From a virus (Duplodnaviria; Caudoviricetes), in IMG/VR virus record IMGVR_UViG_3300037418_002116: a stretch of DNA of 64,000 nt. One strand, 5' to 3'. How positions within the stretch are numbered: the stretch's first letter is position 1; every line of letters starts with the position of its first letter. Below the pieces are notes generated by a model. The model made no database searches. It was not told where the DNA came from and was given only the letters and a program-made list of their open reading frames with translations. Shown here piece after piece: positions 46,357-52,438 of the stretch. The translations under genes and the position numbers were made by a program.

Positions 46357-46713
46357 TCAAAGTTTCCCCAAATCGGCAGACGCCTTTTCGATAAAGGAAT
46401 CGAGAAATTTCAGCACATCGTCATGGCTTCGGTAGGACCAGTCATTGAAACCGGCAAGGCTGGAATAGCCATAATTGGTCGCAAGATGTTGTTTAAGCGC
46501 ATCCCAAATTTCACAATCAAAAGTTCGATGTTCGATGGCTTTGTGGATTGCCCCTTCAAGACACCAGCACACGGCAGTCTTGTCATAGGCAGAGACTTTC
46601 TCGCCCTTGGAATCACGGGCGAACGTACCGATTGTCCAATTCTTTTCATCGGTCAAAATCTTGCGAGCCTGAATAGCGGTTTGGAGTGTTTCAGGATGCA
46701 TCGTTCTCTCCAA
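46357..46713 (-). CDS. Paralog family A member 6 (possibly DUF6197-like)
   Basis: WTIGTFARD..G...AVCWCLEGA...FND...HDDV...D. Confidence 0.75.
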   Translation of the reverse strand: MERTMHPETLQTAIQARKILTDEKNWTIGTFARDSKGEKVSAYDKTAVCWCLEGAIHKAIEHRTFDCEIWDALKQHLATNYGYSSLAGFNDWSYRSHDDVLKFLDSFIEKASADLGKL

Positions 46714-47026
46714 TCAATTCGTCCAGCTTGGCCAGTACGGCGGCATGTGTGGTTTTCTTGTCATCATTGAAACCCATCATGTAGCCGCCCGGAAACAACG
46801 GATCGATTTCGTCATAGAGCGCAACGAATTCGGATGAATGATGCGGGATCACCGCCTTGTTGAAGGCACCTTCAAGGCACCAGCACACGGCTTTGGGCGA
46901 AAGGGAACGAACGTCCCTTCCCTTGTCGTCAACCGCATAATGTCCCTGAACCCAAGCCTCTTTTTCGGCAAGCAGAGCCCGCATGTCTTTGAGTATGGCC
47001 TTGGCCTTGTCGGACAGTTTTTTCAC
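46691..47026 (-). CDS. Paralog family A member 5
   Basis: WVQGHYAVD..G...AVCWCLEGA...FND..TTHAAV..KLD. Confidence 0.75.
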   Translation of the reverse strand: MKKLSDKAKAILKDMRALLAEKEAWVQGHYAVDDKGRDVRSLSPKAVCWCLEGAFNKAVIPHHSSEFVALYDEIDPLFPGGYMMGFNDDKKTTHAAVLAKLDELIGENDAS

Positions 47027-47394
47027 GTCTCGATTTCCCTTGAATGATTTTCGATAGCCCGGTCGATCACGGCAATGACATCTTCATATTTCGTGGTGTA
47101 TGCATCATTCCATGAAGGAATAGAGACATAGCGTGTCAACGTCGGATCGATGGCTATTGCAAGAACCGCCATGGTTCTGGAAAATTCCGACTCTCCCGTC
47201 TCACAAAGAGGCATTTTTCGAGCTACCAAGGCCACGGCACCAGTCAGACACCAGCAAACCGCTTCGCCCGATTCATAGGAGACAACCCCACCATCGTCCT
47301 GTCGGGCCGATGCCCCTTGAGTCCAGCGTTCGGGAGAATTCAAAACTTCTTCCTTCACACTTTTCAGAATTTCGAGTGTCTTCGTGTCTTTCAT
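47023..47394 (-). CDS. Paralog family A member 4
   Basis: WTQGASARQ..G...AVCWCLTGA...WND...YEDV...D.AI. Confidence 0.75.
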   Translation of the reverse strand: MKDTKTLEILKSVKEEVLNSPERWTQGASARQDDGGVVSYESGEAVCWCLTGAVALVARKMPLCETGESEFSRTMAVLAIAIDPTLTRYVSIPSWNDAYTTKYEDVIAVIDRAIENHSREIET

Positions 47395-47615
47395 CCGATT
47401 TCTTCCATCAAATACTTTGCCGCCACATAGGGACAATCATCGGAATGTTCCACGGTATGTGAAGAATTGATTGAATATTCGTTACAATATTCGCACCGAT
47501 AATGAATATTCCGGCCCCGGTCATCTTCCTGAACGGCCCGTTCGATGATCGTCTCACAGACCAGTTTCAGCTTGGCCGTTTCAATCTTGTTCAACAAAAG
47601 ACTTGCCATGATCAC
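47391..47615 (-). CDS. Small Zn-finger-like protein
   Basis: CEYC...HSDDC. Confidence 0.6.
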   Translation of the reverse strand: MIMASLLLNKIETAKLKLVCETIIERAVQEDDRGRNIHYRCEYCNEYSINSSHTVEHSDDCPYVAAKYLMEEIG

Positions 47616-47962
47616 ACCCTTTCAGATTCCTTTGCCCGCTCAATCGCTTGGTCGAGCATGGCTATGACTTCGGAATGTTCCCGGTCGATTTGATCATTCC
47701 AGAGGGTCAGGGGATAGTCGATAATTCTCCGGATCACCGCCCGAGCCGACTCATAGGTATCATCCCACACAGGCATCGAAAGGTTGTGATCGCTCAAAAT
47801 CTTTTGGACACCGCCAGCCAAGCACCAGCGACACGCTGCCGGATCATTGACGCCAACCCCTTCACCATCGATGGTGATGGCCATATTGTACTGTGTCCAA
47901 CGGCTTGGGTCGGACAGAAGCTCACGGGTTTCCGTGAGAATTTGTGATGTTGGAATGGTCAT
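47612..47962 (-). CDS. Paralog family A member 3
   Basis: WTQ..MA...G...ACRWCLAGG...WND...HSEV...D.AI. Confidence 0.75.
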   Translation of the reverse strand: MTIPTSQILTETRELLSDPSRWTQYNMAITIDGEGVGVNDPAACRWCLAGGVQKILSDHNLSMPVWDDTYESARAVIRRIIDYPLTLWNDQIDREHSEVIAMLDQAIERAKESERV

Positions 47963-48318
47963 TTTATTTTGTTCGCCTTTGCTTTTTCGGAAAGCTTTTC
48001 TTTCGCTATGGCCTTGTCGAGAATATTGATCACATCGTCATAGGTGCGACCGATATTGTCGTTCCAAATGGCGATGGAAACGCCAGCGGCATCAGCGGGC
48101 CGAATGGCATTGGACAGAGCCCATAGGCCCTTGGACCAGCGCTCATTGATGCCACCACAAACATGAGCCAAGGCCCCGGAAAGACACCAGCACACGGCGT
48201 CGGGATGACCCCAACCAACCGAATTGCGATTGGCATCATGCGCCATTGCACCCTTGGTCCACTTGTCCGGCGAGGAAAGCAGCGCCTTGGTCTTTTCCAG
48301 ACTTTCCAACTTGTTCAT
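47959..48318 (-). CDS. Paralog family A member 2
   Basis: WTKGAMAHD...AVCWCLSGA...WND...YDDV...D.AI. Confidence 0.75.
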   Translation of the reverse strand: MNKLESLEKTKALLSSPDKWTKGAMAHDANRNSVGWGHPDAVCWCLSGALAHVCGGINERWSKGLWALSNAIRPADAAGVSIAIWNDNIGRTYDDVINILDKAIAKEKLSEKAKANKIK

Positions 48319-48674
48319 CAGTTTGCCGCCCGATTGTCCATCATCGTTTGTGCCGTTCGTGCCAGCGCAATTGCCTTGTCGAAGATTTCCATGACATCGG
48401 CGTGAGTCGTTTCCGGCTTGTCGTTGAAGCGATGCATTTGGTCATTGCCCGGAATGACTTCATAGAGAGTCCGGCGAGCATCGTCATAATCTTTTGTGGG
48501 AGAGGCAAAGCCGGTGACTCGAAGCAGCGCCCCATTCATGCAGAAGCGGCAGGCATAAGGGTCTAGGATGGCCGTTGAGACACCATCGGAATCGGTTGCA
48601 TTCGAGCCCTTGACCCAGAATTCAGGCTTGGAAATCAGTTCCTTGGCCTTTTCGAGAACCGTAACAGTTTGCAC
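48318..48674 (-). CDS. Paralog family A member 1 (GTG start after AGGGG SD)
   Basis: WVKGSNATD..G...ACRFCMNGA...FND...THADV...D.AI. Confidence 0.75.
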   Translation of the reverse strand: MQTVTVLEKAKELISKPEFWVKGSNATDSDGVSTAILDPYACRFCMNGALLRVTGFASPTKDYDDARRTLYEVIPGNDQMHRFNDKPETTHADVMEIFDKAIALARTAQTMMDNRAAN

Positions 48675-48700
48675 GTCTAATCCCCTTTCGAAAAATTTCA

Positions 48701-48865
48701 TGGTGTGGGGAGGAGTCGAACCTTGCCACTAATGACGTATTCGGTCCACGGGTTCTAAGTCCGCAACTAAACGTCACTGCACAGACCTCTTGGCTACTAA
48801 CTGATTTCCAGACAGGTAATGCGCACTTCCTGCTTTCTATCGAGCTTTGACCTCACTGTCACACC
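48701..48865 (-). ncRNA. tRNA-like structured RNA of about 165 nt
   Basis: 5' GGTGTG pairs with 3' CACACC(A); GG-TTCGACT-CC T-loop; internal GCGG-ACTTAGAAC-CCGT hairpin with a UAG (Leu)-like loop; promoter places +1 at the 5' end. Confidence 0.45.
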
Positions 48866-48872
48866 TGATGCT

Positions 48873-48901
48873 CATTTAAGGATTATATGAGGGAATGTCA
48901 A
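48873..48901 (-). promoter_or_regulatory. Early promoter for the tRNA-like RNA and family A array
   Basis: TTGACA-N17-TAAATG; spacer shares ATAATCCT with the 38013-38040 promoter. Confidence 0.55.
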
Positions 48902-50862: not shown

Positions 50863-51074
50863 ACCCAGAACGGACTCGTTAGAAAGGCAATGAGCGCATA
50901 GAGAGTGCAGAGCCCAACAAATGCCCAAACTCCCTTGGATGTCGAACGATATTTGTGTTCCACATAGGCAGGAAGCCAGAGCGTGAAACCAGCCACCGCT
51001 ACGAGTAACAAAGGCCATGAATGGACAAGGGCACTAAGTAAGTTCGCCCAAAGTGTCGAGAAATACCAAATCAT
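50859..51074 (-). CDS. Small membrane protein
   Basis: Two TM-like segments. Confidence 0.55.
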   Translation of the reverse strand: MIWYFSTLWANLLSALVHSWPLLLVAVAGFTLWLPAYVEHKYRSTSKGVWAFVGLCTLYALIAFLTSPFWV

Positions 51075-51589
51075 GCAGTGACAACCGGAATGGTCAAGCC
51101 ATGGCCATGAGCAAATGACTCAAAGTTCCGCTTGATAGTTGCACCAAGGGTTTCCGGTGAATTCGGAGTGTGAGCATGTTTGTTATTGATCGCCGGATCA
51201 TCGTGACAATACTGCAAATCTTTTATGTTCTCCATGTTCAACTTTGAAAATAAAAGTTTCAATGCGTTAAACGAATCAATCTTTTTTTGGCTATCCAACC
51301 AAACGATTTCTCCCCGAAAAGACATCTCCCCGTCAAAGTGCCATTTCTTGGCTTCGGAACCCTCTATCAGCTTCGGTTTCCTAAGAACAGTGTCGATAGT
51401 TCCGATGTTCGGCATATGGTCGAGGATTTCTTGCGGGATAGCATGGCCAATGGCACAACGTTTTCCATCAGATGGACTCAGATAGACGCAATTGCCATTT
51501 TCCCAAGCCGGTTGCCAGTCCTGCTTTGCCATGCCGAGATAAGCAGCATTGAACACTTCCTGTAGGGATTCATAGGGTTTGATAGTCAT
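51071..51589 (-). CDS. Paralog family C member
   Basis: PYESLQEVF..AYLG...Q...C.Y....G.RCAIGH...LQ.CHD...GLTIP. Confidence 0.75.
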   Translation of the reverse strand: MTIKPYESLQEVFNAAYLGMAKQDWQPAWENGNCVYLSPSDGKRCAIGHAIPQEILDHMPNIGTIDTVLRKPKLIEGSEAKKWHFDGEMSFRGEIVWLDSQKKIDSFNALKLLFSKLNMENIKDLQYCHDDPAINNKHAHTPNSPETLGATIKRNFESFAHGHGLTIPVVTA

Positions 51590-51608
51590 TCAGTCGCACC
51601 CGGAATGG

Positions 51609-51992
51609 TCAGAGGACTATCGGAATAGTCAGCCCAAATTTTTCGGCAAAGTGTTCCAATCGTTCCTTCATTGATTCCGGAGTAAAGCCATTGTCATGAA
51701 CGCCTTGCAGTAGCTTCAAAACATCCACTGAAACGTTTGCAAACAGAGCTTGCCAGTCGGAGTCAGCAACGATAGCAGCGCCTACAGAGGCGAAGCGAAC
51801 TTGATTCGTCACCAGTTCATCGGGAACACAATGGCCAATAGCGCATTTCATATCGCCGTTGCTACGATATGAACACGTCGTCCGGTCCCGGTTCGGATTG
51901 AATTGCATAGCCCGGTGAAAGCCTTGTGCAGCCAAACCACGATAGGCAACGTCGAAAACTTCCTGTAGGGATTCATATGGTCTAATGTTCAT
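51609..51992 (-). CDS. Paralog family C member
   Basis: PYESLQEVF...CSY....KCAIGH..PDE...LQ..HD...GLTIP. Confidence 0.75.
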   Translation of the reverse strand: MNIRPYESLQEVFDVAYRGLAAQGFHRAMQFNPNRDRTTCSYRSNGDMKCAIGHCVPDELVTNQVRFASVGAAIVADSDWQALFANVSVDVLKLLQGVHDNGFTPESMKERLEHFAEKFGLTIPIVL

Positions 51993-52438
51993 GGAGTCGA
52001 CTCCAGTTCAGGAGTGGTCAGAGAACCATTCTCTTCCGGAATGGTCAGACCACGTTCAGCGGCGAAATTTCGCATGGCAGCTTCCACATCGAAAGTTTCT
52101 TTTTCATGGCCATAATACTTGTCATGGCAGTTCTGCAAATCTCGCAACTGATTCAAATCGACGTTAGCGAACAGTTCCCGCCATCGTGGTTCCTCAAAGA
52201 ACACACTTATAATCGCACCAACAACAAATCCCCCATTATCACCATGGATAATCAGTTCATCGGGGACACAGTGACCGATGGCACATTTCTTGCCATCCTT
52301 GTTCAGATACTCACAACCCAACCCATCTTGCGATGTGGCCCGTTCCCAATTCTGGCTTTTCATACCAAGCCAAGCCTTGTCGAAAACTTCCTGCAAATTT
52401 TTGTAAGGAACAATTTCAGTTTCGGTGTTCATTTTCAT
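51989..52438 (-). CDS. Paralog family C member
   Basis: PY.NLQEVF...CEY....KCAIGH..PDE...LQ.CHD...GLTIP. Confidence 0.75.
   Translation of the reverse strand: MKMNTETEIVPYKNLQEVFDKAWLGMKSQNWERATSQDGLGCEYLNKDGKKCAIGHCVPDELIIHGDNGGFVVGAIISVFFEEPRWRELFANVDLNQLRDLQNCHDKYYGHEKETFDVEAAMRNFAAERGLTIPEENGSLTTPELESTP

What the first reader, a model, noticed from the sequence alone, without database searches (positions are those of the whole stretch)
48701..48865. Second tRNA-mimic RNA leading the paralog array
The predicted +1 coincides with GGTGTG, which pairs with the 3' CACACC-A next to a TTCGACT T-loop. The 165-nt body is about twice tRNA size. It holds a CU-UAG-AA anticodon-like hairpin enclosed by TGACGT/ACGTCA, crossed by GGTC/GACC (possible pseudoknot), and a CAGG/CCTG hairpin. 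Two oversized tRNA-like RNAs in one region suggest a class of phage tRNA-shaped RNAs (decoys or processed leaders) rather than a single accident.
Basis: partly seen in the sequence, partly recalled or inferred. Interest (0 to 1): 0.62.

Follow-up and report, generated by a model that had tools for sequence, protein, structure and literature searches.

The report
Double-sized tRNA look-alike in soil phage
Some members of a small group of soil T4-like phages carry, right behind a host-type promoter, a conserved folded RNA with a tRNA's two ends but two extra arms and no fixed anticodon, so it is a non-decoding tRNA look-alike whose job is unproven.

Summary
The RNA is real and lies on the MINUS strand (48865->48701). 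Two diverged homologs (about 70% identical; 183 and 161 nt) lie at the same locus in related phages, while three other relatives have the promoter and operon without it. The helix at the anticodon-stem position keeps 8 of 8 pairs, 7 by compensatory change (shuffle maximum 3); the acceptor and a D-domain hairpin also covary. Several first-reader details fail. The 'CCA' is stem CC plus discriminator (homologs end ACG, CCG). The UAG loop becomes an 8-nt loop in one homolog. The 4-bp GGUC/GACC pseudoknot is not conserved. New here: a 61-nt D-loop arm with a probable loop-E motif, tipped by a palindrome that stays self-complementary (UGCGCA to UGAUCA), hinting at dimerisation. Best reading: an early, optional, non-decoding tRNA mimic, cut from the DUF6197 operon transcript and acting as a decoy or scaffold. 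It is built like T4 species 1 RNA but is not homologous to it, and is not tmRNA, Y RNA or a decaying tRNA-Leu. Caveats: only three sequences, no expression data, T-arm inferred from geometry. This scan has noted similar oversized phage tRNA-like RNAs on other DNA many times.

The parts
48873..48901 (-). Host sigma70-type promoter: -35 TTGACA (48901-48896), 17-nt spacer, -10 TAAATG (48878-48873); predicted +1 at or 1 nt before G1 of the acceptor stem
   Evidence: L177 has TTGACA-N17-TATCTT 6 nt before G1; L004 has TATCTG 6 nt before G1. The scan misses it because it demands the last T, which most alphaproteobacterial promoters lack (PMC8407463). Start site is inferred.
48701..48865 (-). tRNA-shaped non-coding RNA, 165 nt (homologs 183 and 161 nt)
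   Evidence: not called by ARAGORN or Rfam
48860..48865 (-). 5' strand of the 6-bp acceptor stem (GGUGUG; homologs GGCGUG)
   Evidence: U3-A to C3-G compensatory change
48701..48707 (-). [quoted passage not shown]
48792..48852 (-). 61-nt insertion at the D-loop position, modelled as one irregular arm: stem 14-16/72-74, probable loop-E motif (GAA/AGUA), stem 25-27/61-63, run of G.A pairs, stem 35-37/50-52
   Evidence: compensatory pairs 15-73, 26-62, 35-52, 37-50; AGUA invariant. Apical stem supported; lower arm inferred (123 two-sided covarying pairs exist among three sequences, and position 15 covaries equally with T-loop position 151)
48820..48825 (-). Self-complementary hexamer at the tip of the arm (UGCGCA; UGAUCA in L177), candidate kissing or dimer site
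   Evidence: no conserved intramolecular partner found; homoduplex -12.5 / -9.2 kcal/mol, heteroduplex -3.7
48779..48788 (-). Nearly invariant AGGUCURUGC: candidate G18G19 and 3' D-stem strand
   Evidence: role inferred from tRNA geometry; register uncertain
48731..48778 (-). Extended anticodon-position arm: 8-bp helix 48778-48771 / 48738-48731 enclosing a variable domain
   Evidence: 8/8 pairs kept in three sequences, 7 compensatory
48748..48764 (-). Inner hairpin resembling a tRNA-Leu(UAG) anticodon arm with an A.C mismatch; replaced by a different hairpin in L177
   Evidence: 16 of 17 nt match the arm of a real phage tRNA-Leu(UAG), L010; not conserved
48708..48727 (-). T-arm: T-loop UUCGACU with an imperfect stem extended to give a 6+6 acceptor/T helix
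   Evidence: Invariant in three sequences, canonical spacing, no covariation; ViennaRNA disfavours it unless the D-arm is imposed
48694..48700 (-). Conserved trailer YGAAAUU, matching the RNase E core RN|WUU
   Evidence: consensus from PMC5222698 (Salmonella); cleavage inferred
46357..48674 (-). Downstream operon: six DUF6197 genes and one small Cys-rich gene; first gene most likely starts at GTG 48674 behind an AAGGGG site
   Evidence: no terminator-like site between RNA and first gene

Best explanation
A phage-encoded, optional, non-decoding tRNA mimic made early in infection. SHOWN: a conserved folded RNA with an acceptor stem, a long helix at the anticodon-stem position and an apical D-domain hairpin; always first behind a TTGACA promoter; present in three lineages and absent from three others at the same locus; anticodon-like loop and discriminator not conserved. 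INFERRED: host RNA polymerase starts at the first G, so little or no RNase P step is needed; RNase E cuts the AU-rich trailer and frees the RNA from the DUF6197 message; the 3' end is trimmed and may receive CCA; the T-loop and the retained GG form a tRNA elbow; the 61-nt arm presents a loop-E protein-binding surface and a palindromic tip that joins two copies. Most likely role: a decoy or scaffold that binds host proteins recognising tRNA shape, for example tRNA-attacking anti-phage toxins, with the exchangeable anticodon-like loop as a variable bait. Real selected structure about 0.95; released tRNA-like RNA about 0.6; decoy or scaffold role about 0.4.
For: Covariation. Homologs at the syntenic site. 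Absence in L002/L171, L003 and G001 with promoter and operon intact. RNA as conserved as neighbouring genes: 70-72% against 64-69%. Conserved -10 to G1 distance and trailer. No shared open frame. Kept although the gene that follows differs (DUF6197 in window and L004, the Cys-rich gene in L177). Precedent for tRNA-ended stable phage RNAs of unknown role in T4.
Against: Only three distinct sequences. T-stem and D-stem never covary. Nearest-neighbour folding prefers, by 1-3 kcal/mol in all three, a fold in which the 5' segment pairs over the T-loop: P(G53-C61) 0.01-0.05, against above 0.5 in 49 of 63 real tRNAs; it rises to 0.27-0.88 when the long arm is imposed. No terminator separates it from the mRNA. 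No binding partner is identified. The palindrome rests on one double change (my rough estimate of chance 4-7%, post hoc).
Confidence: 0.45

Rival explanations
1. A cis-acting structured 5' leader that stays on the DUF6197 operon mRNA, hiding the 5' end in a stem and raising its stability or tuning its translation; the tRNA look is a relic of its origin.
For: Predicted +1 equals G1; no terminator; constant 26-29 nt from the RNA's end to the next start codon; no encoded CCA; discriminator free to vary; an alternative rod fold is slightly favoured.
Against: Relatives express the same operon from a short leader without it. The T-loop and its exact spacing are invariant, which a plain stabiliser would not need. 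An RNase E-like site is conserved directly behind it.
Confidence: 0.25
2. A structural, self-assembling RNA: the palindromic tip and non-canonical motifs build dimers or larger assemblies as in ARRPOF, OLE, ROOL and GOLLD, with the tRNA ends used only for processing and stability.
For: Palindrome kept through a double change; such contacts build natural RNA dimers and cages (PMC12990946).
Against: One event only; the RNA is much smaller than ROOL or GOLLD; no Rfam match.
Confidence: 0.17
3. A precursor from which inserts are spliced out to yield a working tRNA-Leu(UAG).
For: The inner hairpin matches a real tRNA-Leu(UAG) arm at 16 of 17 nt; phage tRNAs with introns have been reported (PMC6784885 listed, not read).
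Against: It would need three separate excisions; the UAG arm is absent in L177; A.C at 31-39; no long variable arm; discriminator C in L177; inserts are far below group I intron size (own knowledge) and give no Rfam match.
Confidence: 0.04
4. A decaying tRNA-Leu pseudogene inflated by insertions, with no function.
For: Missing in half of the relatives; single-sequence folding is not beyond shuffles.
Against: 7 of 8 compensatory pairs in a helix that normal tRNAs lack, at about 30% divergence; inserts as conserved as the tRNA ends.
Confidence: 0.04
5. The palindromic segment is a DNA operator about 40 bp downstream of the promoter, and its symmetry is kept at the DNA level.
For: Dyad symmetry around a variable centre, close to a promoter.
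Against: The invariant G.U and purine-purine oppositions are RNA-like; it does not explain the distant covarying helix or the tRNA ends.
Confidence: 0.05

Closest known systems
Phage T4 species 1 and 2 RNAs (rnaC 139 nt, rnaD 119 nt)
   Same: Oversized stable RNA of a T4-like phage; rnaC folds with a tRNA T-arm near its 3' end and long inner hairpins; function unknown (PMC3014915, PMC12685909).
   Different: No homology (R1 finds nothing in the T4 genome); not in a tRNA cluster but first behind its own promoter, ahead of a protein operon; palindromic arm; optional.
Canonical tRNA-Leu(UAG), Rfam RF00005
   Same: T-loop consensus and spacing, acceptor stem, GG before a short D-stem strand; Leu-like anticodon hairpin in two of three copies.
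   Different: 6+6 acceptor/T helix with mismatches, 61-nt D-loop insertion, anticodon hairpin displaced by an extra 8-bp helix, 3-nt variable loop, loop and discriminator not conserved.
YrlA bacterial and phage Y RNA (PMC4201824)
   Same: tRNA-like non-coding RNA; two homologs carry a GNCGAANG near the 5' end.
   Different: The window copy breaks the motif; YrlA's tRNA domain is permuted with a closed acceptor loop; no Ro60 gene in the two relatives searched.
tmRNA (SsrA)
   Same: tRNA-like ends framing a larger body.
   Different: No G3.U70 pair, no conserved tag frame, half the size, not detected by ARAGORN or Rfam.
allo-tRNAs (8/4, 9/3; PMC5389517)
   Same: 12-bp acceptor/T branch split non-canonically; found in bacteria and phages.
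   Different: The split here is 6/6 and imperfect; no canonical anticodon arm, so decoding is unlikely.

Membership tests
tRNA (RF00005) / tRNA-Leu | Scores as a tRNA | tested here: not met
   ARAGORN 0 genes; Rfam no hit at gathering or E<=10
tRNA (RF00005) / tRNA-Leu | T-loop consensus at canonical distance from the discriminator | tested here: met
   G53 to 73 = 21 nt in all three
tRNA (RF00005) / tRNA-Leu | 7-bp acceptor and 5-bp T stem | tested here: not met
   6 bp, then a 7.66 mismatch; T stem broken
tRNA (RF00005) / tRNA-Leu | 5-bp anticodon stem with a conserved 7-nt loop next to the D arm | tested here: not met
   Hairpin sits beyond an extra 8-bp helix; loop differs and is 8 nt in L177
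tRNA (RF00005) / tRNA-Leu | A73 and long variable arm (LeuRS identity; own knowledge) | tested here: not met
   C73 in L177; 3-nt variable loop
tRNA (RF00005) / tRNA-Leu | Aminoacylation and decoding | not testable with these tools
   Needs biochemistry
T4 rnaC/rnaD | Sequence or CM homology | tested here: not met
   blastn and R1 on NC_000866: no real match
T4 rnaC/rnaD | Oversized body with a tRNA T-arm near the 3' end, T4-like phage | tested here: met
   (design only)
T4 rnaC/rnaD | Located in the tRNA gene cluster | tested here: not met
   No tRNA gene in the 64-kb window or in L177
T4 rnaC/rnaD | Accumulates as a stable discrete RNA | not testable with these tools
   Needs RNA from infected cells
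YrlA Y RNA | GNCGAAN0-1G motif near the 5' end | tested here: inconclusive
   Met in L004 and L177, one mismatch in the window; also explained by a GAAA hairpin or the loop-E strand
YrlA Y RNA | Ro60/TROVE gene within 4 kb | tested here: not met
   Neighbours are DUF6197 and small genes; no TROVE in G001 or G002, control rang in 2 of 14
YrlA Y RNA | Permuted tRNA domain (T arm before D arm, closed acceptor loop) | tested here: not met
   Normal order with free ends at the acceptor
tmRNA | G3.U70 alanine identity pair | tested here: not met
   U3-A70 or C3-G70
tmRNA | Conserved internal tag reading frame | tested here: not met
   No shared frame in three copies; ARAGORN and Rfam negative
Intron-containing tRNA (group I) | Catalytic-core match and exons that rejoin to a canonical tRNA | tested here: not met
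   No Rfam intron hit; no single excision restores a cloverleaf in all three

The most novel reading that the evidence does not exclude
A new family of self-dimerising phage tRNA decoys: a tRNA frame whose D-loop arm pairs two copies through a palindromic tip and whose anticodon-like loop is an exchangeable bait, made in the first minutes of infection to soak up host tRNA-targeting defence enzymes.
Probability: 0.15. Interest if true: 0.8.

Novelty: new variant of a known kind. Interest (0 to 1): 0.47.

Why it matters
tRNA-shaped stable RNAs of T4-like phages (rnaC, rnaD) still have no known role (PMC3014915, PMC12685909). This family is optional, sits alone behind its own promoter and has separable modules (frame, palindromic arm, variable loop), so clean tests of decoy, scaffold and leader models can be designed. 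If it neutralises tRNA-attacking defences it would be an RNA-only counter-defence. Limits: three sequences, uncultured phage, host unknown, and the scan has met many RNAs of this general design.

Tried and rejected
ARAGORN and Rfam (gathering and E<=10): nothing. blastn against cultured phages and plasmids with the three variants: only T-arm fragments or no match. Pattern scans: exact 3' end 0 hits; end-to-end pattern gave a chance ordinary tRNA-Phe (22, 26, 32); UAG-arm pattern gave ordinary tRNAs; D-domain patterns gave chance hits in IMG/VR (37) and 70 chance hits in metagenomes; only the known G002 copy; genome collection 0 hits, then 5 non-homologs. CM searches of Ochrobactrum vB_OspM_OC, Rhizobium RHph_I1_18 and P10VF, Achromobacter Motura, Pseudomonas pf16, CcrColossus and T4: nothing above about 22 bits, the level that ordinary tRNAs reach. 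No RNA holder listed among public runs; only DNA contigs were laid, which say nothing on expression. No whole genome is held. Rejected: plus-strand reading (promoter and genes are on minus); ATG at 48701 as start (overlaps the discriminator, not conserved; GTG 48674 has the ribosome-binding site); a conserved peptide inside the RNA (122); a 3-bp CUGGAAA hairpin as a Ser anticodon arm (broken in homologs); pairing of the palindromic loop with RUGC at 84-87 (broken in L177); homology to the window's other oversized RNA (104). A literature search for the loop-E consensus returned nothing, so that assignment rests on my own knowledge. No structure prediction of DUF6197 was run.

Full report
Setting. 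The window is part of a T4-like myophage: its baseplate wedge protein is 43% identical to that of Ochrobactrum phage vB_OspM_OC, the longest contig carrying the adjacent gene is 261 kb, and DNA runs holding this region are soil and rhizosphere metagenomes (six of eleven may be the source). An alphaproteobacterial host is a guess from this and from promoter style. The feature is on the minus strand, 48865 to 48701, between a TTGACA promoter and an operon of six DUF6197 genes (unknown function in PHROGs). ARAGORN and Rfam see nothing.

Observation. On one sequence they are not beyond chance: folding z is -0.3 and an end-stem plus T-loop signature arises 1.4 times per resampled window. The case rests on homologs. 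Following the downstream protein gave L004/L005, with a 183-nt version at the same place. Following the baseplate protein gave two related genomes; G002 (95% identical protein) holds a 161-nt version (identical in L091). Covariance scores are 113-215 bits, while ordinary tRNAs reach about 22 at most. Pairwise identity is 68-72%, equal to or above that of neighbouring genes (64-69%). Three other relatives (the L002/L171 cluster, L003, and the complete G001) have a TTGACA promoter and the DUF6197 operon with only a short leader. The RNA is therefore an optional module.

Structure that is shown. Acceptor stem: 6 bp, one compensatory change. Helix 88-95/128-135 (RNA numbering), at the anticodon-stem position: 8 of 8 pairs kept, 7 by two-sided change, against a maximum of 3 in 1000 column shuffles; the independent count gave 0/500 shuffles and collapsed on sliding. 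Stem 35-37/50-52: 2 of 3 pairs compensatory, which alone is weak (30% of shuffles reach 2) but is co-linear with further candidate pairs.

Structure that is inferred. Positions 14-74 can be drawn as one long irregular arm inserted at the D-loop: 14-16/72-74 (15-73 G-C, A-U, G-C), then GAA opposite an invariant AGUA, matching the loop-E/sarcin-ricin pattern (own knowledge; the window has C for the first G), then 25-27/61-63 (26-62 A-U, G-C), a run of G.A oppositions and the apical stem. Caution: three sequences give 123 two-sided covarying pairs, and position 15 covaries equally with T-loop position 151. After the arm an invariant GG sits where G18G19 would. The T-loop has exactly canonical spacing, but the T stem is imperfect and never covaries. 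RNAalifold and ViennaRNA prefer, by 1-3 kcal/mol, a fold in which the 5' segment pairs over the T-loop; imposing the arm raises T-arm probability to 0.27-0.88. The elbow is plausible, not shown.

The terminal CCA is stem CC plus discriminator; the homologs continue ACG and CCG. The UAG hairpin matches a real phage tRNA-Leu arm at 16 of 17 nt, which suggests a Leu ancestry or borrowing, but L177 has a different hairpin with an 8-nt loop and discriminator C, so no amino-acid identity is conserved. The GGUC/GACC pseudoknot keeps only two pairs in all three. The other oversized RNA of the window (38003-37757) is unrelated in sequence.

The palindromic tip. The loop hexamer is UGCGCA in two copies and UGAUCA in the third, with invariant flanks. 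The two central bases cannot pair within one hairpin, and I found no conserved partner elsewhere in the RNA; homoduplexes are -12.5 and -9.2 kcal/mol, the heteroduplex -3.7. This fits kissing or palindromic dimerisation, as in other natural RNA dimers (PMC12990946), but it is a single event, with a rough post hoc chance of 4-7%.

Expression and processing (inferred). The -10 element lies 6-7 nt before G1 in all three, so transcription would begin at the stem. Two of three -10 boxes lack the last T, as is common in Alphaproteobacteria (PMC8407463). A TATAAT inside the spacer of the window copy could give an alternative start about 10 nt upstream. All three are followed by YGAAAUU, matching the RNase E core RN|WUU (PMC5222698), then a start codon 26-29 nt on. 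No terminator-like site intervenes.

Mechanism. I favour an early, released, non-decoding tRNA mimic acting as decoy or scaffold for host proteins that read tRNA shape (0.45). The outer frame is invariant while decoding and charging determinants vary, the module is optional as counter-defence elements often are (inference), and it survives a change of the downstream gene. Rivals: cis-acting leader (0.25), self-assembling structural RNA (0.17), DNA operator (0.05), spliced tRNA (0.04), pseudogene (0.04). No partner is identified.

Comparison. It is built like T4 species 1 RNA, an oversized RNA with a T arm and unknown role, but is not a member: no homology and no tRNA cluster. It fails tmRNA (no G3.U70, no tag) and YrlA (not permuted, no Ro60 in relatives). 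A 3'-end pattern also retrieved other unannotated oversized RNAs with GGYGUG/CACRCC ends in unrelated phage contigs. One, L204, shares a 14-nt 5' segment and scores 27.5 bits, only slightly above tRNA background, so I do not count it as a member. Earlier notes of this scan describe many such RNAs in other genomes and several in this one; they are unchecked and used as leads only.

Verdict. A real, previously unannotated small family of structured phage RNAs: a new variant of a known but unexplained kind. Interest 0.47.

Noticed in passing
window 38003-37757 (-); L089:1273-1549 and L089:1562-1809: The window's other oversized RNA (tRNA-Phe-like ends, about 170-nt insert, own TTGACA promoter, ahead of a methyltransferase gene) has look-alikes in cultured Caulobacter phage CcrColossus: two tandem unannotated copies upstream of a putative rRNA methyltransferase; CcrPW matches too. 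This gives a culturable test system.
   Followed up: partly
L204:639-769 (+), L200:2810-3036 (-), L199:3528-3669 (-): Unannotated 131-, 227- and 142-nt tRNA-ended RNAs in unrelated IMG/VR contigs with GGYGUG/CACRCC ends; L204 and L200 fold with a 6+6 acceptor/T helix, and L204 shares AGGC-GNRA-GCCGGU with L177.
   Followed up: partly
window 46357-48674 (-): Array of six DUF6197 paralogs with a conserved Cys motif; copy number and order vary among relatives (at least 8 in L003, 5 in G001, 4 in G002).
   Followed up: partly
L002:100-160, L003:2870-2940, L171:3490-3550: RNA-less relatives carry in the same leader a short near-perfect palindromic hairpin (GAAAGCCATGGCTTTC in L171) just before the ribosome-binding site.
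   Followed up: no
window 51071-52438 and 56804-57301 (-): A second paralog family (PYESLQEVF...KCAIGH motif, at least four copies) with no Pfam hit for the one tested.
   Followed up: no
L011:9900-10090: Short tandem repeats each containing a T-loop-like GGTTCGAATCC, with no tRNA called.
   Followed up: no
window 48887-48882 (-): A perfect TATAAT sits inside the promoter spacer, only 8 nt after TTGACA, also in L002 and L003 but not in L177.
   Followed up: no
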